Source of the DNA: a virus
IMG/VR virus record: IMGVR_UViG_3300047200_000500
Span: 32,001-96,000 of that record
Length of the DNA: 64,000 nucleotides
Reading direction: 5' to 3' (one strand)
The notes under the pieces were generated by a model, which did not search any database, was not told where the DNA came from, and was given only the letters and a program-made list of their open reading frames with translations. Below, piece after piece: positions 15,999 through 64,000 of the stretch (the first letter of the stretch is position 1; each line of letters starts with the position of its first letter). Made by a program: the position numbers and the translations under genes.

Positions 15999-16459
15999 GT
16001 TGGTGGGATAAAGAAATACCTCAAGAAATTTCTGATGTACTTGTCATTTTAAGAGTTAAAATAAATGGTAAACAAGTAACTCGTGACTGGCGTAAAGATT
16101 GTGGTATTGATTATGATAGACTAGAAGATGATTTAGCTGATATGTCTAGCATATATTCTTTTTGGACAGCGGTTTTATCAGAAGCCAGGAAAAATTTAAG
16201 AATAGTTGAGTATCAAATTGATATTCGTAAATCTAAAGTGATGAGAGAAATTAAAGTACCAGAAGGTGTAAAATTAACAGTTGCAGATAAAGAAAGTATA
16301 ATTAATATAGATCCAGAAATGGGTGCACTTGTGGTAAAACAAATAGAATTAGAAAATATTGTACAAAAATTGTTTGGAATAGTAGATTCTTTGAAAATGA
16401 AAGCGGATAATTTAAGATCACTTGCGGGATTTAAGAGAGCAGAACTTTCTGGAAGTTAG
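15995..16459 (+). CDS. UvsY-like recombination mediator
   Basis: Helical 154 aa with LTVADKES..DP and KADNLRSL; sits directly before the SSB. Confidence 0.6.
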   Translation: MSWWDKEIPQEISDVLVILRVKINGKQVTRDWRKDCGIDYDRLEDDLADMSSIYSFWTAVLSEARKNLRIVEYQIDIRKSKVMREIKVPEGVKLTVADKESIINIDPEMGALVVKQIELENIVQKLFGIVDSLKMKADNLRSLAGFKRAELSGS

Positions 16460-16530
16460 GCAAGTATATAAAGCAACGAACCGCAGAAAATGGCCAAACG
16501 GCCATCTGCAAGTAAACCCAGGAGATCATC

Positions 16531-17580
16531 ATGTCAGGCATCAATAAGTTAGATAAACAAAAGCTCTTAGAGCGCATGCGTGCTAAGCAGCAAGAACAGT
16601 CAGGATTTCATGATCCTACTGAGTGGCGACCACCCAAACTCAAAAAGGATGAGGAGAAGAGTTACAGAGTGATTGTTCTTCCGCCCCTGGAAAAGGGCGA
16701 TACGTGTACTGGTGGTACAGCCACTGAATCTATGGATTTATGGTATCGTGTGCACGGGCACCATTTCATAAATAAGAAACGTTATGAATGCCCACGTGTT
16801 CATCCAGAGAAGGGTGATTGCCCATTGTGTACAACTGGTTTCGATTTGATGCGTGAGACTGATGATAAGAAAGTAAGGTCTGCTCTTGCTAAGGAATGGT
16901 TATCAAGACAGAACTATGCTGCCAATGTTTATTTTGAAAATCATAAGGATAATCCAGAAGATCTTCGTGGTAGAGTATTCTGGTGGTCAATTCCTGAGGG
17001 GGTATTCTTAATTTGCGATAAGGCATTTAAGAATGATGACCCAGGTGATGATGACAATCCTAAGGCTCATGGTCTGTTCTTTGATCCTGATGCCGCTTTC
17101 CCATTAGTGATAGAAGTGAAAGTGAAGAATGATTTTAATAATTATGAAGGGTCACATTTCATTGGTAAGCCTCGTGCTATTGCTTCCACTCAGGAAGAAA
17201 TAAGTGCAATTCTTGCCAAACGCCATGATGTGATGAAGAAATTTGAAGATCGTGATATCAAAGTGTTAAACAAGATTCTTGAAGATAAGATCGGTGGCAC
17301 AACTAGTGGAGATTCTGGCTCATCAAATAGGCCAACTGATGGAGATGAGGGGTATATTGATCAGAAAAAGACTGAACAGAAGACTGAACAGAAGATTCAG
17401 ACCGAATCCAAGAAGACTGAACAGAAGACTGAACAGAAGACTGAACAGAAGACTGAACAGAAGACTGAACAGAAGACTAAGCCTGCTGATCCTCCAAAGG
17501 TTGACCCCCCTAAAGAGGAAGAGGCAGAAGATCCTGAATTAGCCGCTCTTCTTGCTCAGCTTAACAGCGATAAGAAGTAA
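16531..17580 (+). CDS. single-stranded DNA-binding protein (T4 gp32-like)
   Basis: WRPP, R.IVLP, HGHH...CP...CPLC zinc motif, YAANVY, FFDPD, NNYEGSHF, acidic C-tail; AGGAGA RBS. Confidence 0.85.
   Translation: MSGINKLDKQKLLERMRAKQQEQSGFHDPTEWRPPKLKKDEEKSYRVIVLPPLEKGDTCTGGTATESMDLWYRVHGHHFINKKRYECPRVHPEKGDCPLCTTGFDLMRETDDKKVRSALAKEWLSRQNYAANVYFENHKDNPEDLRGRVFWWSIPEGVFLICDKAFKNDDPGDDDNPKAHGLFFDPDAAFPLVIEVKVKNDFNNYEGSHFIGKPRAIASTQEEISAILAKRHDVMKKFEDRDIKVLNKILEDKIGGTTSGDSGSSNRPTDGDEGYIDQKKTEQKTEQKIQTESKKTEQKTEQKTEQKTEQKTEQKTKPADPPKVDPPKEEEAEDPELAALLAQLNSDKK
17368..17478 (+). repeat. 12-bp tandem repeat (aagactgaacag; KTEQ), 2+5 copies
   Basis: Copies at 17368-17391 and 17413-17472 in the SSB linker. 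Confidence 0.95.
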
Positions 17581-26563: not shown

Positions 26564-28057
26564 ATGACTGAAAAAATAGAAATCATTTGTGAAAATTGCG
26601 GAAAAAAAAGATTAATAACAAAAAAATCTTTTTTAAGAAACAAACGTGATGGTATTAAAAAATGTATGCATTGTTATAATGATGAAAATTATAAAAGCAT
26701 GATGTCAATAAAATCAAATAAAGCTTGGTTATCAGAAGATTTAAAAAATAAAGTAAGAAATATTTCAAAAAATTGGGCATATAATAATAGAAAAATTATA
26801 TCAGAAAAAATGAAAGAAATTTGGAATGATGATGATTACAAATTAAATCAGATAATAAAACAAAAAATAACTCATCCAAAAATTATTAAAATATTAAAAT
26901 ATAAAAAATCTATTGATGAGTTAAAAAACGAAGCATCAAAAAAAACTAGTGAAATATGGAAAAATAAAAATTATATCAATAAACAAATTGAAATACATGA
27001 ACATCAAAAAGTTGATAATGATTTTAAAAGAAAAATATCGGAATCATTAAAAATAAAATGGAATGATGAAGATTATAGAAATAAAATGAAAATAATGTTT
27101 TCTGAAAGATTAAAAAAATTATGGAAAAACGATGAATATAGAATAAAAGCTATAAAAGCGATTGAATCAAGTAAAGGTAAAGTTTCTAGTATTGAAATTG
27201 TTTTAAGTTCTATTTTAGATGATTTAAAAATCAAATATGAATTTCAAAAATCAATCGGGTTTTTCATATTTGATTTTTTATTACCAGATTATAATATATT
27301 AATTGAGTGTAATGGTGATTATTGGCATTCGTTACCGAAAGCTATTAAAAATGATAAAGCTAAATCATCATATATTACAAATAATTTTTCAGAATATAAA
27401 CTACATTATATATGGGAACATGAATTTAAATGTAAGGATAAAGTTGTTGAATTAATTAAATATTGGACAGGAACCAAATTTGATATGATTGATTTTGATT
27501 TTAAAGATTTGATTATAAAAATTACTGAATTAAAAGATGCTAGATTATTTGTTGATAAATACCATTATTCTGGAACAATAGGAAATTCAACATATAGATA
27601 TGGTTGTTATTTAAATAATGAATTAATAGCTTTATGTTCATTTGGAAATATAACGAGAAATGAATCAGCAATAAGATTAAATATGAAACTTAACGAATTG
27701 CTTGAACTTACAAGATTTTGTATTCATCCAAAATATCAAAAGAAAAATTTTGCAAGTTGGTTAATTAGTAGATGTATTGATGAAATTAAAAAACTTAATA
27801 AATATAAGTGTTTAATATCTTTTGCTGATACTACTTTTAATCATAATGGTACAATATATAAGGCATCAAATTGGATAAATGATGGAGTTGTTTCTCCAAG
27901 TTATTGGTATATTGATAAAGATGGATATGTGATGCACAAGAAGACATTATGGGATAATGCAAAGAAAATGTCTATGACTGAGAATGAATATTCATGTAAA
28001 TATTGTTATAAGAAAATCTCTGGAAAAGAGAAAATCAGGTATGTTTATTATTTGTGA
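26564..28057 (+). CDS. putative homing endonuclease: NUMOD3-like repeats + Vsr/DUF559-like nuclease + Mom/GNAT-like domain (Hef-like)
   Basis: CENC/CMHC; repeated K.W.D..Y; SSIE...FDF...LIECNGDYWH...D..K...IWEHE; FVDKYHYSG, ELTRFC, ASWLISR, LISFAD..FNHNGTIYKASNW; extremely AT-rich. Confidence 0.75.
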   Translation: MTEKIEIICENCGKKRLITKKSFLRNKRDGIKKCMHCYNDENYKSMMSIKSNKAWLSEDLKNKVRNISKNWAYNNRKIISEKMKEIWNDDDYKLNQIIKQKITHPKIIKILKYKKSIDELKNEASKKTSEIWKNKNYINKQIEIHEHQKVDNDFKRKISESLKIKWNDEDYRNKMKIMFSERLKKLWKNDEYRIKAIKAIESSKGKVSSIEIVLSSILDDLKIKYEFQKSIGFFIFDFLLPDYNILIECNGDYWHSLPKAIKNDKAKSSYITNNFSEYKLHYIWEHEFKCKDKVVELIKYWTGTKFDMIDFDFKDLIIKITELKDARLFVDKYHYSGTIGNSTYRYGCYLNNELIALCSFGNITRNESAIRLNMKLNELLELTRFCIHPKYQKKNFASWLISRCIDEIKKLNKYKCLISFADTTFNHNGTIYKASNWINDGVVSPSYWYIDKDGYVMHKKTLWDNAKKMSMTENEYSCKYCYKKISGKEKIRYVYYL

Positions 28058-42394: not shown

Positions 42395-42417
42395 ATAATC
42401 TTGTTAAAGCTTTAAGT

Positions 42418-42443
42418 GCAGCCCTGGCAATAACCAGGGCTGT
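42418..42443 (+). terminator. hairpin terminator before the sheath gene
   Basis: gcagccctgg-caataa-ccagggctgt followed by gtcgttt. Confidence 0.7.
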
Positions 42444-42519
42444 GTCGTTTGTAATGTTCTCTGACAAAAATATTCATGGCAAAGATACATTAACTTAATC
42501 AGACCAACCGGAGTAAATA

Positions 42520-46055: not shown

Positions 46056-46089
46056 CAATTGAGCCAGCCTTAACGGGCTGGCTCAATTG
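46056..46089 (+). terminator. intrinsic terminator after the tail tube gene
   Basis: 14-bp stem caattgagccagcc / ggctggctcaattg followed by tttgt. Confidence 0.88.
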
Positions 46090-47289: not shown

Positions 47290-48129
47290 ATGAGTGATAG
47301 ACTTAATGCGTCTGTTGGCGGAAGTGTCGCTTTAAATGCGGCGTTTGCCAATAATGGTGTCCCTACTGACCCATATACTATTCGTGCTGTGAGGATTTAT
47401 AAGCAGTCGGTAAGAGAAGAAAATAAAGTTTTAGAAATATTAGTACCGCCACCTGGATCAACTGATTACCAATCTGTTTTTGATTCATTATTTCAAAGAG
47501 TACAAGATCCAACTGTTAGTGAAACTGGTGTATGTGGAACTGATATTGGTCCACATTATCTTCCAGGGGCATATGTATTGAATCTTAATTTGCCATGCGA
47601 TACATTTGAAGCTGGTGTTTATTTTGATGTCTGGTGTTTTGTTGGAGATCTAAATTGTTATACTGATCAGAGTGTTATTAACTGGGATGATGAGTCAATG
47701 TGGACTTGCCAGTGCAATAAGTTTTTTCTTAGTTCAGCCAACAATTGGCAAATGGATGATGATTTAACTAATATTAGGTTAGGATTTGACCCACTTGATT
47801 CAAAATTTATTCAACCAGAAAAGAGAATGTTAGAAGTTGGCATGATGCCTCTACCTTTATATGATTACGATTATAAGAAATTAGCACCATTAATACCTGC
47901 TTTAAGAGGTAAAATAACTATTGAAACTCAAAATTGTGAAACTATTGTCAATGATGCAGATATGAAAATTGGTCTCAGATCTGGCTCGTACAGATCAAAT
48001 CCATATGTGTTAAAATATTTACTTGATACCTCTAAATTCTTTAAAGGAACTTATAAATATAGAGTTTCAGTAGGATTACCTAATGGTGAGACTCGTGTTT
48101 CAGACAACTTTTATTTTACGGTGCGCTAA
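47290..48129 (+). CDS. hypothetical virion structural protein
   Basis: 279 aa, beta-rich and Cys-rich, within the morphogenesis cluster. Confidence 0.6.
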   Translation: MSDRLNASVGGSVALNAAFANNGVPTDPYTIRAVRIYKQSVREENKVLEILVPPPGSTDYQSVFDSLFQRVQDPTVSETGVCGTDIGPHYLPGAYVLNLNLPCDTFEAGVYFDVWCFVGDLNCYTDQSVINWDDESMWTCQCNKFFLSSANNWQMDDDLTNIRLGFDPLDSKFIQPEKRMLEVGMMPLPLYDYDYKKLAPLIPALRGKITIETQNCETIVNDADMKIGLRSGSYRSNPYVLKYLLDTSKFFKGTYKYRVSVGLPNGETRVSDNFYFTVR

Positions 48130-48605
48130 TGAAAACTTTAAATCAAAACGGACTTAAAAAATTGGTTGAATATGTTAATGCTGAATATGATAAAAAATTT
48201 ATAATTAATAATGGATACCTTGAATTAGATGATAAATCTGAAATTATTATTGAAGATCTAAAAAAACATAATATATTATTAAAAGAATTTTCTCATGAAA
48301 AAGATTTAAAGAGATATGATGTTATAATAGAAGATACTCCTGTATCTTCAGTTCCAGAATTGGCATCAAATAAAACCAATATCGATAACAGTGGTAAAGA
48401 TTATAAAGATGAAAAAGATATGAAAGAAATGGTAAAACAAATATTACCATATTTATCTCAATATTTTCCAACTAAAGAAGAAATTAATGATGCTTTAAAT
48501 GATTTACGTGGTCAATTGGTTGATCCAATTGAATTAACTAATTTGTTTAAAGATATATCATTAAAAGTAAAGAAAGATCAAAGTAAGTTATCTAAGATAA
48601 AATGA
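48129..48605 (+). CDS. hypothetical protein
   Basis: 158-aa ORF with several (I/L)xE motifs. Confidence 0.6.
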   Translation: MKTLNQNGLKKLVEYVNAEYDKKFIINNGYLELDDKSEIIIEDLKKHNILLKEFSHEKDLKRYDVIIEDTPVSSVPELASNKTNIDNSGKDYKDEKDMKEMVKQILPYLSQYFPTKEEINDALNDLRGQLVDPIELTNLFKDISLKVKKDQSKLSKIK

Positions 48606-48865
48606 AATTAGATAGTTTAAATAAAAATAATATTAGTCTTGGGTTGAAAAAGACTAATCCATCATTTAGTGTTCCTATGTCTAATAGTTTAGTAATTAAT
48701 AATAAGATGAAGCAGGATGAAAAAGAAAATGAAAAAAGTAATGTCTCTACTGTTGATCAAGCATTAAGAACTAAAAAAATAATTGATACCCAAACGATAA
48801 GTGATCCAAACAGAAATATTCCAGATATTAGAAGACCACCTAATATTAATAACATACCAGCATAA
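48602..48865 (+). CDS. hypothetical protein
   Basis: 87-aa coupled ORF. Confidence 0.5.
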   Translation: MKLDSLNKNNISLGLKKTNPSFSVPMSNSLVINNKMKQDEKENEKSNVSTVDQALRTKKIIDTQTISDPNRNIPDIRRPPNINNIPA

Positions 48866-48905
48866 CACCTTATCAAATCTAAATAAAGCATCAGGAGATA
48901 TTAAG

Positions 48906-50840
48906 ATGGAACTCATTGATCGTCTCAAAATAATACTTGAAGCACCAGGAGATAATGAAGATATTGATGATGTTATTGATTCAGAGCCAGAAGTTGATGA
49001 AGGCGATACTGATGTCAAAGTTGATGATAATGCCGAGGCTGCAGCTGATGAGGAAAAATCTGAAGTTGAACAATTAATTGATAAAGAAAAAGGCGTAATT
49101 GATTGGACTGGCATACCTAATCCAATGCCGGGTAAAACTCTTTCTGACTTAAAGGGATCTAAGGTTAAAGGCATACCTGCTGTTAAATTGCCATTGGAAA
49201 ATGGTTGGACCAAAGAAGAAGTTATATCAGCACTCAAACCAACTATAATTTATTTTGCTAAGAAATATTCAACTCCAACATTTAATGTTGAGGAAGCTAT
49301 TGCTGAACAGATGACCGGAGTACTTGAAGCTCTTAAAAATGATAAAGGAATTGCACCATTTACTTCACATGTATACCGTTATCTTTCAACATCCGCTCAA
49401 AGAGGTGCTGGTAAGGCTTCTAATATTTCTGGTGTCCCACAAACTAAAGGCGGTAAGTATGATCACTTAGCCGCTTCTAGAGCAGCGGTTAGTGCTGATG
49501 CTCCAATGCCTGGAGATGCCGAAGAAACTTATTCTAGTCAGATCTCTAGCCATTATGATCAAGCTGGTGAATTGGCTAGTAAACAGAGAACAATGACTAA
49601 ATTGATTTCCCATTTATTAAATGCCCCTTCTGTTGGTCTTTCAGAAAAAGAGAAACTTGTTTTAATGGCAACTTATGGTATAGGACAAGATGGTAAAATT
49701 GGCGAACCGAAGACTAGTAAAGAAATAGCTGATGCTTTAGGCGGAGTTTCTGTTGTAAGAATTAGTCAAATTAGAACTGGTGCACTCGCTAAAATTCAAG
49801 AATATGTCCAAGCTCGCAAGTTTAAAGATGAAGGCCAAGCAGCACAATCTCTTGGCATTGAAGAATCTAAACTTATTGCTATTGCTGAAGCTTTTGCAAG
49901 AATTATAAAAGAGACGATTCAACTTGAATATGAAATGTATTCCGAAAGACAAATAATTGAAATGAAGACAGATTATCGTGGAAGAAGCGAATCTGTTAAA
50001 ATTCATGTTAATTCTGATACATATGAAGTTGAAAATGCATTAAATGAAGAGAATGAAAGTATACTTGGACATGTAACTGATGAAATATTAAATGAAGCAG
50101 TTGATCTGGCAAGAGCTAAAACTTCAGGTCAATATTTTGCCGAAATGGTCAACAATGTTATAAGTATGCAGGCACAACCAGTTCTTGCCACTATAAATAA
50201 TACTATTTCTAAAGGTGAAATTCCATTCATTTATGTTAATAAGCCAGGAGTAGAAAGGGCAATGGGTGCCGCTGAGAAAGCAGTATTTGGCAAAAGATTT
50301 AATGGGAAATATTATGGTGGTGGGGCATCAAGGATAAATGCTTGGTATTATCAAAATGATGCTGCTGAACAAGTCAATAAAATGCATGAAATAATGGCAA
50401 ATAAAGGATTTGCAGAGTTCAAGGCCGATAGTTCTGGTAAGACAATGAGTGAAGATATCAACCAGGAAACTTTAAAGCCTGGATCATATTCAACTGAAGT
50501 AAGAGTGCCATATTTGGATGGTAGTGGTAGTACCACATATAATGTTGTTTTTGATATATATGGTCAATTTTTAGAAGAACTTGATATAAAAGCAATAGAT
50601 GATGTTGATACTGGTGAAATGAATATCGATCTTGTTACTGTTAATTTAGATGAAATAGAAAAGAAAGTAAATGAGAAAATAAAGTCTCGTGAAATTAGAT
50701 CTATGTCATATGATAAAGATAGACTTAAGCAACTTCAAGATATGGTTGCAAACGATGAAGAACACCAAGCAAAAATTCATAAATTCGAAAATCAATTTGC
50801 TGATTTACAACCACCAGATAAAGAAGATGGGAAAAGCTGA
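48906..50840 (+). CDS. protein containing a sigma70-like core (regions 2 and 4) with long N- and C-terminal extensions
   Basis: AGGAGA RBS before ATG 48906; region 2-like LKPTIIYFAKKY...VEEAIAE...GVLEAL...FTSHVYRY; region 4 LSEKEKLVL..TYGI...TSKEIADALG.VS.VRISQIRTGALAKI. Confidence 0.75.
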   Translation: MELIDRLKIILEAPGDNEDIDDVIDSEPEVDEGDTDVKVDDNAEAAADEEKSEVEQLIDKEKGVIDWTGIPNPMPGKTLSDLKGSKVKGIPAVKLPLENGWTKEEVISALKPTIIYFAKKYSTPTFNVEEAIAEQMTGVLEALKNDKGIAPFTSHVYRYLSTSAQRGAGKASNISGVPQTKGGKYDHLAASRAAVSADAPMPGDAEETYSSQISSHYDQAGELASKQRTMTKLISHLLNAPSVGLSEKEKLVLMATYGIGQDGKIGEPKTSKEIADALGGVSVVRISQIRTGALAKIQEYVQARKFKDEGQAAQSLGIEESKLIAIAEAFARIIKETIQLEYEMYSERQIIEMKTDYRGRSESVKIHVNSDTYEVENALNEENESILGHVTDEILNEAVDLARAKTSGQYFAEMVNNVISMQAQPVLATINNTISKGEIPFIYVNKPGVERAMGAAEKAVFGKRFNGKYYGGGASRINAWYYQNDAAEQVNKMHEIMANKGFAEFKADSSGKTMSEDINQETLKPGSYSTEVRVPYLDGSGSTTYNVVFDIYGQFLEELDIKAIDDVDTGEMNIDLVTVNLDEIEKKVNEKIKSREIRSMSYDKDRLKQLQDMVANDEEHQAKIHKFENQFADLQPPDKEDGKS

Positions 50841-52943: not shown

Positions 52944-55019
52944 ATGACGAATTCGGTGAAAAAAGCTAAGGAAATCATTCCTACGCTTTCAGAAAAATCT
53001 TTACCATCTCTAGCGTTAGAACCTAAGATTAAGCCTAAGAACCATTATTTTGATAATGATTTGGTTCAAGAAATTTTAAAAAGATATGTTGCTCGTGGGT
53101 GCGTTGACATAGAATTACGTGATGAAATAATGCACCATGCTGAAGAATTGATAAGACAAGTAATCAGAGCGCATAATTTTGAACATATTTTTCCAAATAG
53201 AGACAGTTCATCAGCATTAGAATTATTCCAAGTGGCCTATTGTGTATCGTTAGATACCATGTTATTCACTGACAATGGGATAATGAAAATAAATGATATA
53301 ATTAATAACAGTTTTAATAGACAAATACTTTGTAATGGATTAATTGGAGAAATTGATATCATGGTAAATGGAATTAATGGATTATCAAAAGCTAATAAAT
53401 ATTGCTTAAGAAATAATATTAAAACAAAAAAGATTAAAATTAAATATGATTATGAATTGGAATGTACTAATGATCATCCAATTTTAGTTTTAAAACCTGA
53501 TGGGCATAAATGGATAAATGCTGGTGATCTTAAGAAAAATGATTATGTTGGTTTACAATATAATCAAAATATTTGGATTAATAATAATAAAATAGATTTT
53601 AAACCATTAACTAAAGGTGGTACCACTTACATGTGGAATCCACCTTCAGAATGGACTGAAGAATTAGCATATATAGTAGGATTAGTAGTCTCAGAAGGAT
53701 CAGTTGAGGATTATAGAATTGTAATTTATAATGGAGAAGTAAATGAAATATTACAAAATAATAATTGCGGGCTAATTATTAAATATGATGGTAATCTTAC
53801 TAATGCGATAGGATGTATAAGGTTTGCAGAATTTATAAAATGGTTAGGGATTAGCAATAGTGCATTAACAAAAAAAATTCCAGAGCAAATTTTGAAATGT
53901 TCTAAGAATATTATATCATCATTTTTGTCAGGAATGTTTGATGGTGACGGTCATTCTAATAAAAGCAATGGAAGAGTTGGATATACATCATCTTCAAAAA
54001 TTTTAATTGAACAATTAAGAATGTTGATGTTAAACTATGGAATAGTAACCCAAAAAAGTGCAGATAATAGGAAATTCAGTTTGTTTAGAAATAAAAAATG
54101 TGACAAGCATACATCATGGCAAGTATTATTTCCAACAATTGATTCAATGATATTTTATAATGAAATAGGATTTAAAATAAAACGAAAGCAAAATAATAAA
54201 GTGAAATTGTCAGATATTCCATTTAGATATTTATATGGTCACTATAAACAACATACTGGAAATATTCTTAAATATATTAAAAAATTAGATCGTAAATGTT
54301 TAAAACCAAGAGATATAATTACACCTAAAATATTATCAAGATTGTTATTGGTTAAATCAGCTATTAATACTGAATCTTATAAATATTTATCTGAAAGATT
54401 ATCTGAATGTTCTGGTAATAATAAGATAATATGGTTGCCAGTCAAGGAAATAAATGACAGCATATCAGATGTCATTGATATTACAGTTCCACTTGAAAAC
54501 AATTTTGTAGCCAATGGTATAATAACCCATAATTGCCAGATCGAGAAAGTTTTATATAAATATGATCCACAACCAGGATCACCAAAATTATTCAATTTAT
54601 GGAGCCAGGTAAGCAAGACGCGAATTTTGGCATACTTGAAAAAAGAGAAAAGAGACAAAAAGAATGTCGTGAGTTATAAAGATTTCTTAAACAGAAAACA
54701 GAAAATCAAATTAAAAAATTCAACAGATATTGATTTGTGGTTAAAAGAAGCAAGGGAGATGTTAGAATATAATGAAGATTTTTTAAAGATAGTAGATGCA
54801 ATAGAAAAAATTTGGTATGATGATGAAAAATCTCATGATGGACTAATATCAAAAATTGAAAAGACTAGTGGAAAGAACAGGAATATAATAAGCCATTTTT
54901 TCAAAACAATAAGGATAAGAAGAGATGAGTTTACGGTTAATTTACTTGAAGTTAAAGACCCTAAAGATCCTGATGCTAGTGATGTAGAAGATTTCTTTTA
55001 TATTGACCATGATCAATAA
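52944..55019 (+). CDS. late-transcription sigma factor (gp55-like) interrupted by an intein
   Basis: Exteins: KNHYFDN...ELFQVAY|CQIEKVLYKYDP..GS.KLFN.WSQV.K.RIL.YLKKEKR, resembling the gp55 pattern (HY.NN...FDP...F..FTQI...I.KEK); 260 aa after splicing. Confidence 0.75.
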   Translation: MTNSVKKAKEIIPTLSEKSLPSLALEPKIKPKNHYFDNDLVQEILKRYVARGCVDIELRDEIMHHAEELIRQVIRAHNFEHIFPNRDSSSALELFQVAYCVSLDTMLFTDNGIMKINDIINNSFNRQILCNGLIGEIDIMVNGINGLSKANKYCLRNNIKTKKIKIKYDYELECTNDHPILVLKPDGHKWINAGDLKKNDYVGLQYNQNIWINNNKIDFKPLTKGGTTYMWNPPSEWTEELAYIVGLVVSEGSVEDYRIVIYNGEVNEILQNNNCGLIIKYDGNLTNAIGCIRFAEFIKWLGISNSALTKKIPEQILKCSKNIISSFLSGMFDGDGHSNKSNGRVGYTSSSKILIEQLRMLMLNYGIVTQKSADNRKFSLFRNKKCDKHTSWQVLFPTIDSMIFYNEIGFKIKRKQNNKVKLSDIPFRYLYGHYKQHTGNILKYIKKLDRKCLKPRDIITPKILSRLLLVKSAINTESYKYLSERLSECSGNNKIIWLPVKEINDSISDVIDITVPLENNFVANGIITHNCQIEKVLYKYDPQPGSPKLFNLWSQVSKTRILAYLKKEKRDKKNVVSYKDFLNRKQKIKLKNSTDIDLWLKEAREMLEYNEDFLKIVDAIEKIWYDDEKSHDGLISKIEKTSGKNRNIISHFFKTIRIRRDEFTVNLLEVKDPKDPDASDVEDFFYIDHDQ
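53241..54533 (+). mobile_element. intein with LAGLIDADG homing endonuclease (431 aa)
   Basis: N-terminal CVSLDT, block B LECTNDHPIL, YIVGLVVSEGS and FLSGMFDGDGH, block F/G VIDITVP..NNFVANGIITHN followed by +1 Cys. Confidence 0.95.
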
Positions 55020-59905: not shown

Positions 59906-62008
59906 ATGAGCATGAATAAGCAACCGACTCTTGCCACCTCCAAAGTTACGATGGATGCTCGCAAGTTGCTGAGCACTATCAACCAAGGATATGCAGGTCA
60001 GATATCGGTCATGGAGAACCGACTGCAAAAACTTGGACTGGAATTAAACAGAAAATTCCGTTTAGTTTCTCTTGCCAATAATGCATTAATGTTTGAAGAT
60101 GTAAAGTCTAATAATTATTACCGTGCTGATTATAAGATTGCTGAGCATCAAATTACTCTTGAAAATATTAAACAGATTGTTGTTGTTGATGAAAAGAAAC
60201 CAGAAATCTTTAATAAAGCTTGCCGTGAGTTAGTAGAAGCTATTGAAAATGATGATTCTTCAAAGGCTGATAAGATTTTTGGACAGATAGAGAAGGGGTA
60301 TTGCACACCTAATGTTATTCCTGAGAGTGGCATAGTTAAGACTCGTGATGGTGTTGTTCAGCGCATTCATATCAATGAATCTATCATATCAGAATCAATA
60401 TATCCAGTATTAGTGAAGACAATTAAGGAATCAATTACTTCTGCAAAGATGGTCATTAAAGAAGGTGTAATAACCTATAATGACCAGAATGTGAAATTAC
60501 CTGTATCTAAGTTAACTTTACGTCAGGTTAACGCTCGCCACATGAGGAATGTGGCTGAGAGTGCTTATCAGAGTGATAATTTTGGTAAGCTTATCAAGGC
60601 TTGTGCCGCTCACATTTCTAATGCTAATATTCGCGAGGCTATCAAACTGTCTAAGGATTTCTTAACTGAAGAGCAGGAATTCACTCTCCTCAATAAGGAT
60701 GAGTTTGGAACATTAATTGAAAATACTTTATTCTCGAATGGTATCTTTAATCATAAGATAGTAGAGGATACCGCAAACACCCTTTGGGAAACCAATTGTT
60801 TTGTTAATAAAGATGCCATCTTGAAGGAATGGAAGATAGCTGCTGAAGATATTAAGTCAAAGAATTTAACTGAAAATGTTAAGTTACTTGAGGATGTTTC
60901 AAATAATCCAAAGAAGTTCTCTGAAGCTTATGATTCATTTGTTAAATCAGTTCTTGTTGAGGACATGTCATCCAAGGCTGTAAAGGCCCAAGCATACCTC
61001 AATATGCTCAAACTGGTCAAGAATGTTGTTTCTGGATCTGACGCTGACGCTGCAGTACAGGGAGCAGTGGATGATCTTGTAATTCGTCTTGAGAGTGATA
61101 TTAATAATATTGATGATGCAACCCTTTATGAAGTTGAAGATTTACTCGCCACAGTTGGTTCTGATTTAATCACAGACGTTCAGACACTTGGCGATTTCAA
61201 CAAGATACCTGAGCCTCAAGCTGTTGACCAGTTTGGTGCACCTTCTGATATTGAAGGTGAATTTGCTGGTGATATGGGTGAAGACTTTGTTGCCCCATCA
61301 GTTGGCGGTGCAGGCGGAATGGGTGAGGCTGGTGCTGCTGGCGATATGGGTGCTCCTACCGCAGACATGGGCGCTCCGGCCAGTGCAACTCCTGGTGCAG
61401 AAGGTGGCATAGAAGTAGCTCCTGAGGTAGTTCCTGGTGCTGAAGAGGAAGAGGAAGAGCCAGTACTAGATAGTAAGAAAGTTGACGGAAAGGCTATTAG
61501 TGAAAATTCTGATTATAATACTCCCAAAATTGATGAAAATTTAAAAGTCAATGAAAGCTATGGTGAAAGCGATAAGCCATGGGAAAAGAAGGATGATAAG
61601 AAAGTAGAAGACAAAGTGGAAGACAAAAAGGATGATAAGAAAGTAGAAGAATCACTTGTTGCTGTTGCTAATAGTGATGAAAAACTCATTGAAATAGTCA
61701 GCGCTGCAATGAATGCAGATGACAAAACTGATGATGAAGTTAAAAAAGCTGATCCAGCCCCTGCCGCTGATAAACCAGAAGGTGAATTAATTCAAGATTG
61801 CGATGAACCAGTGGTTAAAGAGGACAGCAATATAACTGATCCTGATAGCAAGAACTATGCTGGCCACCAAGATGATAAGAAAGATCATGAAGGCGTGAAG
61901 AGAAATAATCCTCCTAAATTCAGTGATGAAGATTTTAATGGTACCGAAAAAGCTAAAACTGGCAAGGATAAGCCAGAAGCCGGTCTGACAAGCGCTACTA
62001 AGGAATAA
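59906..62008 (+). CDS. putative prohead core / scaffold-type protein
   Basis: Between portal and protease; helical, acidic low-complexity tail, many (I/L/V)xE sites. Confidence 0.6.
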   Translation: MSMNKQPTLATSKVTMDARKLLSTINQGYAGQISVMENRLQKLGLELNRKFRLVSLANNALMFEDVKSNNYYRADYKIAEHQITLENIKQIVVVDEKKPEIFNKACRELVEAIENDDSSKADKIFGQIEKGYCTPNVIPESGIVKTRDGVVQRIHINESIISESIYPVLVKTIKESITSAKMVIKEGVITYNDQNVKLPVSKLTLRQVNARHMRNVAESAYQSDNFGKLIKACAAHISNANIREAIKLSKDFLTEEQEFTLLNKDEFGTLIENTLFSNGIFNHKIVEDTANTLWETNCFVNKDAILKEWKIAAEDIKSKNLTENVKLLEDVSNNPKKFSEAYDSFVKSVLVEDMSSKAVKAQAYLNMLKLVKNVVSGSDADAAVQGAVDDLVIRLESDINNIDDATLYEVEDLLATVGSDLITDVQTLGDFNKIPEPQAVDQFGAPSDIEGEFAGDMGEDFVAPSVGGAGGMGEAGAAGDMGAPTADMGAPASATPGAEGGIEVAPEVVPGAEEEEEEPVLDSKKVDGKAISENSDYNTPKIDENLKVNESYGESDKPWEKKDDKKVEDKVEDKKDDKKVEESLVAVANSDEKLIEIVSAAMNADDKTDDEVKKADPAPAADKPEGELIQDCDEPVVKEDSNITDPDSKNYAGHQDDKKDHEGVKRNNPPKFSDEDFNGTEKAKTGKDKPEAGLTSATKE

Positions 62009-62013
62009 GGGTC

Positions 62014-62670
62014 ATGCAGGTCCTATCCAATAGAGTGATTACTAAAAATCAGGTAATCCGGGATTATTACCCTCTCAAGGTAATAAAGCAGGACTCTATA
62101 CTTGCCGAATCGGCAAATGGATCACCAAAGCGTCAGGTTACACGTCTAACCAGTTTGGTTCAAAAAGCTGAAGATCCAAACGAGAATGGTAGAATCTATC
62201 CACTTGAAGTAATGACTGAGAGTGTTAAAGCTATACAGCCAATGTTGAAAGAGCGTTCAATCTTGGGTGAGATGGATCACCCAGATGATGCTAAAATTCA
62301 TACAGAAAATGCTTGCATATTGTTAACTAAGTTATGGATGGAAGGCAAGAATGTTTATGGTCAGTTTGAGATCCTTGAAGGAATGCCTAAGGGGCAGATG
62401 CTCAAGGCTCTAATTGACCAAGATGTAAGAGTCTGCATTAGTAGTCGTGGTGTGGGTGATCTTGAATCGTATCTTAGTGAAGATGGTAATGAGTTTAATA
62501 GAGTTCTTCCAGGATTTAAGTTCGTAACCTTTGATGCTGTTAATGAACCTAGTGTTAATGGTACTAATCTTAGCATAATGGAAAGCAAGATCCGTGTTGC
62601 TCGTAGCAAGTCACGTATTGATCTTGAAAAACAGTTCCTCACTGAGACCAAACTTACTTTCAGAGTTTGA
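62014..62670 (+). CDS. prohead protease (gp21-like)
   Basis: NENGRIYP, LGEMDHP, G.FEIL...P.G, ISSRGVG, TFDAVNEPS. Confidence 0.95.
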   Translation: MQVLSNRVITKNQVIRDYYPLKVIKQDSILAESANGSPKRQVTRLTSLVQKAEDPNENGRIYPLEVMTESVKAIQPMLKERSILGEMDHPDDAKIHTENACILLTKLWMEGKNVYGQFEILEGMPKGQMLKALIDQDVRVCISSRGVGDLESYLSEDGNEFNRVLPGFKFVTFDAVNEPSVNGTNLSIMESKIRVARSKSRIDLEKQFLTETKLTFRV

Positions 62671-63798: not shown

Positions 63799-64000
63799 AT
63801 GAAGTTGTCACTGATAAATGAGTCTAATAGAGAAGATAGAGAAATACTATCAAGACAAGCTGAATTTGAAACAGTTCTTTTATATGAGCCAGAATTTGAA
63901 TCAATGGAAAATTATGAAATTTTAGATTATTGCACGAAACAATTTACTACTAATACTCCTCCTGGTATAACACCAATAAATGCCAAAGTAATATGTGCTG
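63799..64000 (+). CDS. partial CDS, hypothetical
   Basis: MKLSLINESNREDREILSRQAEFE... open to the window end. Confidence 0.55.
   Translation, partial: MKLSLINESNREDREILSRQAEFETVLLYEPEFESMENYEILDYCTKQFTTNTPPGITPINAKVICA

What the first reader, a model, noticed from the sequence alone, without database searches (positions are those of the whole stretch)
48906..50840. Sigma70-like core inside an apparently head-packaged, protease-processed protein: an injected sigma factor?
Seen: sigma region 2-like and clear region 4 HTH motifs (~49215-49810) sit in a 644-aa protein in the morphogenesis region. It begins MELIDRLKIILE|A and has GIEE|S and IIKE|T just after region 4, plus LNE sites later. The same hydrophobic-x-E motifs are dense in the core protein, portal tail and protease. 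Known: T4 gp21 cleaves after (I/L)xE, and T4 internal proteins carry a short N-terminal targeting peptide ending in such a site. Inference: cleavage would release a ~308-aa sigma-like fragment delivered with the DNA to redirect or jam host RNA polymerase at infection onset.
Basis: partly seen in the sequence, partly recalled or inferred. Interest (0 to 1): 0.85.

Follow-up and report, generated by a model that had tools for sequence, protein, structure and literature searches.

The report
Phage sigma factor with head-loading leader
An uncultured T4-like phage encodes a true sigma factor whose first 12 residues look like the "load into the head, then cut off" tags of phage T4, so it may be injected with the DNA, but only sequence evidence supports this.

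Summary
The ORF at 48906-50840 is real. It encodes a 644-aa sigma-70 family protein: Pfam region 4 is above cut-off, the family profile matches solved SigA/SigB/RpoD chains at E 3e-18 across regions 2, 3.2 and 4, and Foldseek returns only sigma chains.

It starts with an amphipathic helix, MELIDRLKIILE|A, followed by a 50-residue disordered acidic tether. The phi-x-E ending is kept in 27 of 27 aligned relatives.

The phage has a T4 gp21-type (S77) prohead protease. A 700-aa ORF next to it is packed with phi-x-E|small sites (z 6.3). N-termini of this genome's ORFs are enriched about 3-4 fold for phi-phi-x-E|small (14 seen, 4.2 expected).

The sigma protein as a whole is not enriched in such sites (z 1.5). 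Its leader is not shared with other proteins here and does not score against T4 Alt. Expression timing could not be read.

Head loading and injection is therefore plausible (about 0.45) but unproven. The proposed internal cuts that would release a 308-aa fragment are weaker still.

The scan has flagged similar leader-tagged sigma factors on other DNA. No paper found reports a virion-packaged sigma factor.

The parts
48873..48885 (+). Conserved upstream element TCAAATCTAAATA (TCAAATTTAAA in relatives); possibly a promoter-like box, class unknown
48893..48897 (+). Shine-Dalgarno AGGAG, 8 nt before the ATG, conserved in relatives
48906..50840 (+). Gene for the 644-aa sigma-70 family protein (P0001)
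48906..48941 (+). Leader, residues 1-12, MELIDRLKIILE: amphipathic helix ending in phi-phi-x-E, followed by Ala; candidate capsid-targeting propeptide
48942..49100 (+). Acidic, variable, disordered tether, residues 13-65 (22 D+E, 4 K+R, pLDDT under 50)
49101..49430 (+). Family-specific DWTGIP..PGKTL..PLENGW motif plus sigma region 2 (residues 66-175)
49431..49565 (+). Region 3.2-like linker (VSADAPMPG...), residues 176-220; no region 3.0/3.1 domain
   Evidence: alignment
49566..49820 (+). Sigma region 4 helix-turn-helix, residues 221-305
49821..49865 (+). Flexible hinge ending in LGIEE|S (E320); phi-x-E|S/A kept in 22 of 29 relatives; candidate internal cut
49866..50204 (+). Conserved post-sigma module, residues 321-433 (long helix, three-stranded sheet, helices); present in all family members; no known fold match
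50205..50837 (+). Variable C-terminal modules, residues 434-644, absent from the roughly 407-aa relatives; the beta module around 520-600 also occurs on non-sigma proteins (P0090, P0123)
62014..62670 (+). Prohead protease, T4 gp21 type (Peptidase_S77 E 5e-19; phrog_207 E 5e-43); the enzyme that would remove the leader
59906..62008 (+). 700-aa ORF between portal and protease, packed with phi-x-E|small sites (z 6.3); candidate head core protein that shows the local cutting motif
63799..64000 (+). Start of a 151-aa ORF (runs to 64254) with leader MKLSLINE|S; the same leader heads a bona fide 227-aa sigma factor (P0032) of a related phage
52944..55019 (+). Intein-bearing gene whose intein-free homologues look like a region-2-only (gp55-like) sigma; bears on which sigma serves late genes

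Best explanation
The gene encodes a genuine sigma-70 family factor with region 2, a region 3.2 linker and region 4. It is built as leader, acidic tether, sigma core, then extra modules. The 12-residue amphipathic leader ending in I-L-E|A is most likely a T4-style propeptide. It would bring the protein into the assembling prohead, where the phage's gp21-type S77 protease removes it. The mature protein, about 70 kDa, would stay in the head and enter the cell with the DNA. There it would bind host core RNA polymerase and start transcription from phage promoters before any phage gene is expressed. Shown here: the sigma identity, the leader and its conservation, the protease, the local cutting motif, and an excess of leader-like N-termini in this genome. 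Inferred: head loading, cleavage, injection and the early-transcription role.
For: Sigma identity rests. The leader phi-x-E is kept in 27 of 27 aligned relatives at 23-89% identity while the flanks vary, and a wider set of phage sigma-like proteins has related leaders. AlphaFold gives a lone helix at residues 2-11 on a disordered tether that does not pack on the core. The S77 protease is present. A neighbouring 700-aa ORF shows the motif x-I/V-x-E|S/A/G at z 6.3. Phi-phi-x-E|small occurs in 14 of 193 N-termini, against 1.7% of internal windows and 4.2 +/- 2.0 after shuffling each N-terminus; the reversed pattern occurs 4 times. T4's proven leaders fit the same pattern: gp24 MAKINELLRE|S (PMC9958956) and Alt MELITELFDE|D (PMC9026906). 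A 227-aa sigma of a related phage (P0032, Pfam r2 and r4 both above cut-off) carries a different leader, MKLSLINE|S. That leader is identical to the one on an unrelated ORF in this phage's head module and near-identical to one on a second ORF. The gene keeps its place in a same-strand tail-to-head block in all relatives. The genome also holds a leaderless sigma and a probable gp55-like sigma that could serve later stages.
Against: There are no virion, cleavage or timing data. The leader is specific to this sigma family: a leader HMM does not hit other N-termini here above internal background and scores 0.8 bits on T4 Alt, so it could be part of sigma function. One relative (L020) lacks E at the aligned position. 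A distant member (L016) is not among structural genes. Site density in the protein is at chance. The mature protein is acidic (pI 4.8), unlike the basic T4 internal proteins. No cultured relative was found. No paper found reports a packaged sigma factor.
Confidence: 0.45

Rival explanations
1. It is an ordinary intracellular phage sigma factor for middle or late genes. The N-terminal helix and acidic stretch would act like region 1.1 (self-inhibition or DNA mimicry) or bind a partner such as core polymerase, a clamp or an anti-sigma. The phi-x-E ending would be incidental.
For: Every characterised phage sigma factor acts inside the cell. T4-like jumbo phages are known to encode RpoD-like sigmas (PMC7824862). 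The leader is confined to this sigma family. The acidic N-terminal region recalls region 1.1. The gene has its own conserved upstream element and SD and lies beside a helicase and a probable gp55-like sigma, not only structural genes. Site density is at chance.
Against: It does not explain why the helix always ends in phi-x-E followed mostly by Ala (27 of 27). It does not explain why this genome has an excess of such N-termini, nor why another sigma core carries a head-module leader. AlphaFold shows no folded region 1.1-like domain and no packing of the helix on the core.
Confidence: 0.35
2. It is a polyprotein. After loading, the protease cuts at E12, E320 (and E336, E504 or E516), releasing a 308-aa sigma and separate C-terminal modules.
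For: E320 lies in the least confident stretch between region 4 and the next helix (pLDDT 54). Phi-x-E|S/A is kept there in 22 of 29 relatives. The C-terminal modules vary and one occurs on other proteins. T4 Alt is trimmed at both ends (PMC9026906).
Against: The protein has no excess of sites (z 1.5 and 0.85). With one phi-x-E per 29 residues, a site in a given linker is expected by chance in roughly a third of cases. The 321-433 module is conserved in all members, which suggests it works together with the sigma core.
Confidence: 0.12
3. It is a pro-sigma. The leader would keep the factor inactive or mislocalised until a protease removes it, as a timing switch inside the infected cell, without delivery to the next host.
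For: Bacillus subtilis pro-sigma-E and pro-sigma-K are activated by removal of N-terminal pro-sequences (own knowledge). The leader ends in a protease motif.
Against: T4-type S77 proteases act inside assembled proheads (PMC9958956), so a substrate must be in the head to be cut. No other candidate protease was examined.
Confidence: 0.08

Closest known systems
Phage T4 Alt (head-packaged ADP-ribosyltransferase that modifies host RNA polymerase)
   Same: A large protein (about 70-76 kDa) aimed at host RNA polymerase, with a short N-terminal propeptide ending in phi-x-E in a phage with a gp21-type protease. T4 alt lies next to the gp48/gp54 genes, and here the gene lies three small ORFs after a gp48/54-like gene.
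   Different: Alt is an enzyme, not a sigma factor. There is no sequence similarity beyond MELI (0.8 bits). Packaging of Alt is proven; here it is not.
T4 capsid targeting sequence of internal proteins IPI-III, and the 10-residue propeptide of gp24
   Same: A short N-terminal amphipathic peptide ending in phi-phi-x-E|small (gp24 MAKINELLRE|S), removed by the prohead protease (PMC9026906, PMC9958956).
   Different: T4's tag is shared by several unrelated cargo proteins, whereas this leader is confined to one sigma family. The cargo here is acidic.
Virion RNA polymerases of N4, phiKZ/AR9 and crAss-like phages
   Same: The same logic: a transcription protein made late, packed, and injected to read early genes (PMC7598289).
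   Different: Those phages deliver a whole polymerase. Here only the promoter-recognition subunit would be delivered, and the host core enzyme would be used.
Phage sigma factors acting in the cell (T4 gp55, SPO1 gp28/gp34, RpoD-like sigmas of T4-like jumbo phages)
   Same: A phage-encoded sigma-70 relative that redirects host core polymerase (PMC7824862).
   Different: None is known to carry a cleavable leader or to be in the virion. gp55 lacks region 4; this protein has it and does not match phrog_234.
Bacillus subtilis pro-sigma-E and pro-sigma-K
   Same: Sigma factors made with an N-terminal pro-sequence that a dedicated protease removes.
   Different: They are cellular, use different proteases and serve a developmental checkpoint. 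No packaging is involved.

Membership tests
Sigma-70 family | Region 4 helix-turn-helix | tested here: met
   PF04545 29 bits against cut-off 24.1, residues 244-298; aligned to region 4 of SigB/RpoD
Sigma-70 family | Region 2 (core binding and -10 recognition) | tested here: met
   Single-sequence Pfam is weak (12.6 bits). The family profile aligns regions 2.1-2.4 to solved sigma factors at E 3e-18. Foldseek's top 50 hits are all sigma chains.
Sigma-70 family | Binds core RNA polymerase and directs promoter-specific initiation | not testable with these tools
   Needs biochemistry
T4-type head cargo with cleavable N-terminal leader (IPs, Alt, gp24) | Phage encodes a gp21-type (S77) prohead protease | tested here: met
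   PF03420 E 5e-19; phrog_207 E 5e-43
T4-type head cargo with cleavable N-terminal leader (IPs, Alt, gp24) | Short N-terminal peptide ending in (L/I/V)-x-E, conserved in relatives | tested here: met
   IILE|A at residue 12; 27 of 27 in alignment A2; one exception outside the alignment (L020)
T4-type head cargo with cleavable N-terminal leader (IPs, Alt, gp24) | Leader shared by unrelated cargo proteins of the same phage | tested here: not met
   The leader HMM gives no excess hits on other N-termini. A different leader, MKLS[LT]INE|S, is shared by two unrelated ORFs and by a foreign sigma.
T4-type head cargo with cleavable N-terminal leader (IPs, Alt, gp24) | Late expression | tested here: inconclusive
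   Same-strand block with tail and head genes and no terminator from 47290 to 50840, but the promoter class could not be assigned
T4-type head cargo with cleavable N-terminal leader (IPs, Alt, gp24) | Present in virions with the leader removed; ejected on infection | not testable with these tools
   Uncultured phage; no proteome available
T4 gp55-type late sigma | Small region-2-only protein matching the gp55 family | tested here: not met
   It has region 4 and is 644 aa. There was no PHROG hit, and phrog_234 and phrog_12791 found nothing in the genome.

The most novel reading that the evidence does not exclude
A lineage of T4-related phages packs its own sigma factor in the capsid and injects it with the DNA. 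Host core RNA polymerase would then be re-aimed at phage promoters from the first moment of infection, without host sigma and without a virion polymerase.
Probability: 0.4. Interest if true: 0.85.

Novelty: new variant of a known kind. Interest (0 to 1): 0.62.

Why it matters
Phages are known to start infection in three ways: with host sigma, with an injected whole polymerase (N4, phiKZ, crAss-like), or with an injected enzyme that modifies the host polymerase (T4 Alt). An injected sigma factor would be a fourth, cheaper way. It would explain how such phages could be independent of host promoter specificity. It would also provide a natural protein-delivery tag and a testable family of promoter-sigma pairs. 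The family is widespread in metagenomes: 17 cluster representatives below E 1e-30 and 82 below 1e-10 in the profile search, the weaker of which include ordinary sigma factors.

Tried and rejected
- Cultured relatives: tblastn of P0001 and of a distant member (P0049) against 50,697 phage records found nothing. The family profile found nothing in Microcystis phage Mel-JY01 or Flavobacterium phage immuto, the nearest cultured phages by portal.
- PHROGs gave no family for P0001.
- T4 gp55 and gp45 as single queries, and phrog_234 and phrog_12791, found nothing in the genome. This is uninformative for so distant a phage.
- The idea that the MELI start is homologous to T4 Alt was rejected (0.8 bits).
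- The idea that the downstream helicase is T4 UvsW with gp55 synteny was dropped. Its best matches are weak hits to varied helicases.
- The C-terminal half had no convincing match in PDB (best Z 8.2, helical only), in BFVD, or in the ESM Atlas.
- Promoter class: GTAWATA is strongly enriched before start codons (29 sites, no -35 partner), but it is not upstream of this gene. A PWM only picked up the SD region.
- The first-reader claim of two further sigma genes at genome 13002/13025 got no PHROG support.
- g111031, which has a similar leader (MQFNELKVLLE|Q), is not sigma-like.
The context of most family members could therefore not be read.

Full report
**What is there.**
The ORF at 48906-50840 (+) translates to 644 residues. 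A longer GTG start at 48801 is unlikely. An AGGAG lies 8 nt before the ATG at 48906, and every homologue begins at the same Met.

The window is bases 32001-96000 of a 169,621-bp linear IMG/VR virus record with 32% GC. By portal protein its nearest cultured relatives are Microcystis phage Mel-JY01, Flavobacterium phage immuto and Rhodothermus phage RM378, at about 31% identity. It is therefore a distant T4-like myovirus.

**Sigma identity.**
- Pfam Sigma70_r4 scores above its cut-off (29 against 24.1 bits, residues 244-298). Sigma70_r2 is weak on the single sequence.
- A profile of 30 family members matches solved SigB, RpoD and SigA chains at E 3e-18 to 1e-14. The match covers regions 2.1-2.4, a region 3.2-like stretch (VSADAPMPG aligned with PVSLDMPVG) and region 4.
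- The AlphaFold model (mean pLDDT 73) returns only sigma chains of RNA polymerase holoenzymes among its 50 best Foldseek hits.
- The protein lacks a region 3.0/3.1 domain.
- Membership of the sigma-70 family is therefore well supported. Core binding and promoter use are untested.

**Architecture.**
- Residues 2-11 form a lone helix.
- Residues 12-64 are acidic, variable in length and disordered.
- Residues 66-175 hold an invariant DWTGIP..PGKTL..PLENGW motif and region 2.
- Residues 221-305 are region 4.
- A low-confidence hinge ends in LGIEE|S (E320).
- Residues 321-433 are a conserved helix-sheet-helix module found in all members.
- Residues 434-644 are variable modules that are absent from the roughly 407-aa relatives.
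- The C-terminal half folds confidently (pLDDT 85) but matched nothing convincing.
- One of its beta modules also occurs on non-sigma proteins.

**Surroundings.**
The upstream genes are tail sheath, tube and a gp48/54-like baseplate protein, followed by three small unknown ORFs. The downstream genes are:
- an SF2 helicase;
- an intein-bearing gene whose intein-free homologues look like a region-2-only sigma (ESM Atlas score 0.95, one neighbouring cluster 100% PF04542; a lead only);
- two unknown ORFs;
- TerL and portal;
- a 700-aa ORF;
- a Peptidase_S77 prohead protease;
- scaffold-like proteins and the capsid gene.

This order is kept in all six related viral contigs, down to 41% identity.

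**The cleavage-motif claim.**
The 700-aa ORF beside the protease carries 15 [LI]xE[small] sites against 3.8 expected (z 6.3). The protease itself has z 4.3. Their sites read x-I/V-x-E|S/A/G/D/N, the T4 gp21 type of motif.

The sigma protein is not enriched (13 against 9.1, z 1.5; strict form 5 against 3.5). The "site-studded" part of the finding is therefore at chance level for this protein.

**The leader.**
In the 30-sequence alignment, phi-x-E at the column of E12 is kept in 27 of 27 sequences that cover it. It is mostly followed by Ala, while the neighbouring residues vary. One further relative lacks it but has ITE|Q six residues later. A wider set of phage sigma-like proteins found by the profile search carries related leaders, for example MDIIKKLSKIFE|S and MDSFIERLNILLE|A. 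The roughly 94 ordinary sigma hits do not.

In this genome, phi-phi-x-E|small lies in the first 17 residues of 14 of 193 ORFs. That compares with 1.7% of internal windows, and with 4.2 +/- 2.0 when each N-terminus is shuffled on its own. The reversed pattern occurs 4 times. I chose the pattern after seeing the data. However, T4's proven leaders fit it: gp24 MAKINELLRE|S (10 residues removed, PMC9958956) and Alt MELITELFDE|D (N-terminal propeptide removed, PMC9026906). The capsid protein here also starts MNKRQEVLLTE|A.

A second leader, MKLS[LT]INE|S, heads two unrelated small ORFs, one of them in the head module at 63799. It also heads P0032, a 227-aa protein from a related phage contig with Pfam regions 2 and 4 both above cut-off. 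Sigma cores in this phage group are thus found behind at least two different leaders of this type.

**What weakens the reading.**
- The sigma leader is family-specific. Its HMM does not hit other N-termini here above internal background, and T4 Alt scores 0.8 bits.
- A family-specific helix could serve sigma function, and the acidic stretch recalls region 1.1.
- The mature protein would be acidic (pI 4.8).
- Timing is unknown. There is no terminator between 47290 and 50840. The abundant GTAWATA box (29 sites close to start codons, no -35 partner) is absent upstream of this gene, which has its own conserved TCAAAT(C/T)TAAA element and SD.
- The internal cut at E320 is plausible: flexible hinge, 22 of 29 conserved. 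It is not beyond what one phi-x-E per 29 residues gives by chance.

**Known or new.**
Full-text searches found no report of a virion-packaged sigma factor. T4-like jumbo phages are known to encode RpoD-like sigmas. Earlier notes of this scan describe leader-tagged sigma factors in other uncultured phages. These are unchecked AI notes and I did not count them as evidence.

**Verdict.**
The protein is a real sigma factor with a conserved leader of the protease-motif type. Head loading and injection has a probability of about 0.45, an ordinary intracellular sigma about 0.35, and the polyprotein and pro-sigma variants less.

Noticed in passing
window 59906-62008: A 700-aa ORF between portal and protease has 31 phi-x-E sites, 15 of the strict [LI]xE|small type (z 6.3), and no family match. 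It is probably a head core or internal polyprotein cut into many peptides.
   Followed up: partly
window 52944-55019: This gene carries a LAGLIDADG intein (Pfam Intein_splicing, LAGLIDADG_3). Intein-free homologues of 246-260 aa look like a region-2-only, gp55-like sigma by the ESM Atlas (0.95), but PHROG gp55 models do not match.
   Followed up: partly
whole genome; e.g. window 42513, 52932, 55611, 58157: The heptamer GTA(A/T)ATA is 16-fold enriched upstream of genes. There are 29 sites within 70 nt of a start, usually 11-16 nt before the ATG, with no -35 partner and often no SD. It resembles the T4 late box and suggests near-leaderless mRNAs. GTATTTA is a further variant.
   Followed up: partly
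window 63799-64254 and L004:17267-17623: Two unrelated small ORFs (151 and 118 aa) share only the leader MKLS(L/T)INES. The same nine residues head a 227-aa sigma factor on metagenome contig L015.
   Followed up: partly
L001:883-1698 (genome 150646-151461): A second sigma-70 family gene of 271 aa (region 4 at 36 bits) has a Zn-ribbon-like CPICGH...CESCNH insert and no leader.
   Followed up: partly
L004:2228-3722 (genome 97928-99422): The capsid gene reads in two frames. T4 gp23 residues 1-283 and 280-478 match adjacent frames that switch near genome 98825. This is either an assembly indel or a frameshift.
   Followed up: partly
L004:15331-15948 and 16369-17265: ORFs of 205 and 298 aa start MQFNELKVLLE|Q and MRSKLVLLFE|A. 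These are leader-like N-termini on proteins with no family match. P0032's contig is syntenic with this region.
   Followed up: partly
window 46056-46089 and 42416-42445: Strong hairpins (15 and 12 pairs) follow the tail tube gene and precede the sheath gene. They are terminator-like or processing sites.
   Followed up: no
window 26564-28057; L007, L011, L012, L020: Large HNH/Mom-like homing-endonuclease ORFs sit at different places in the otherwise collinear tail-head block of the relatives.
   Followed up: no
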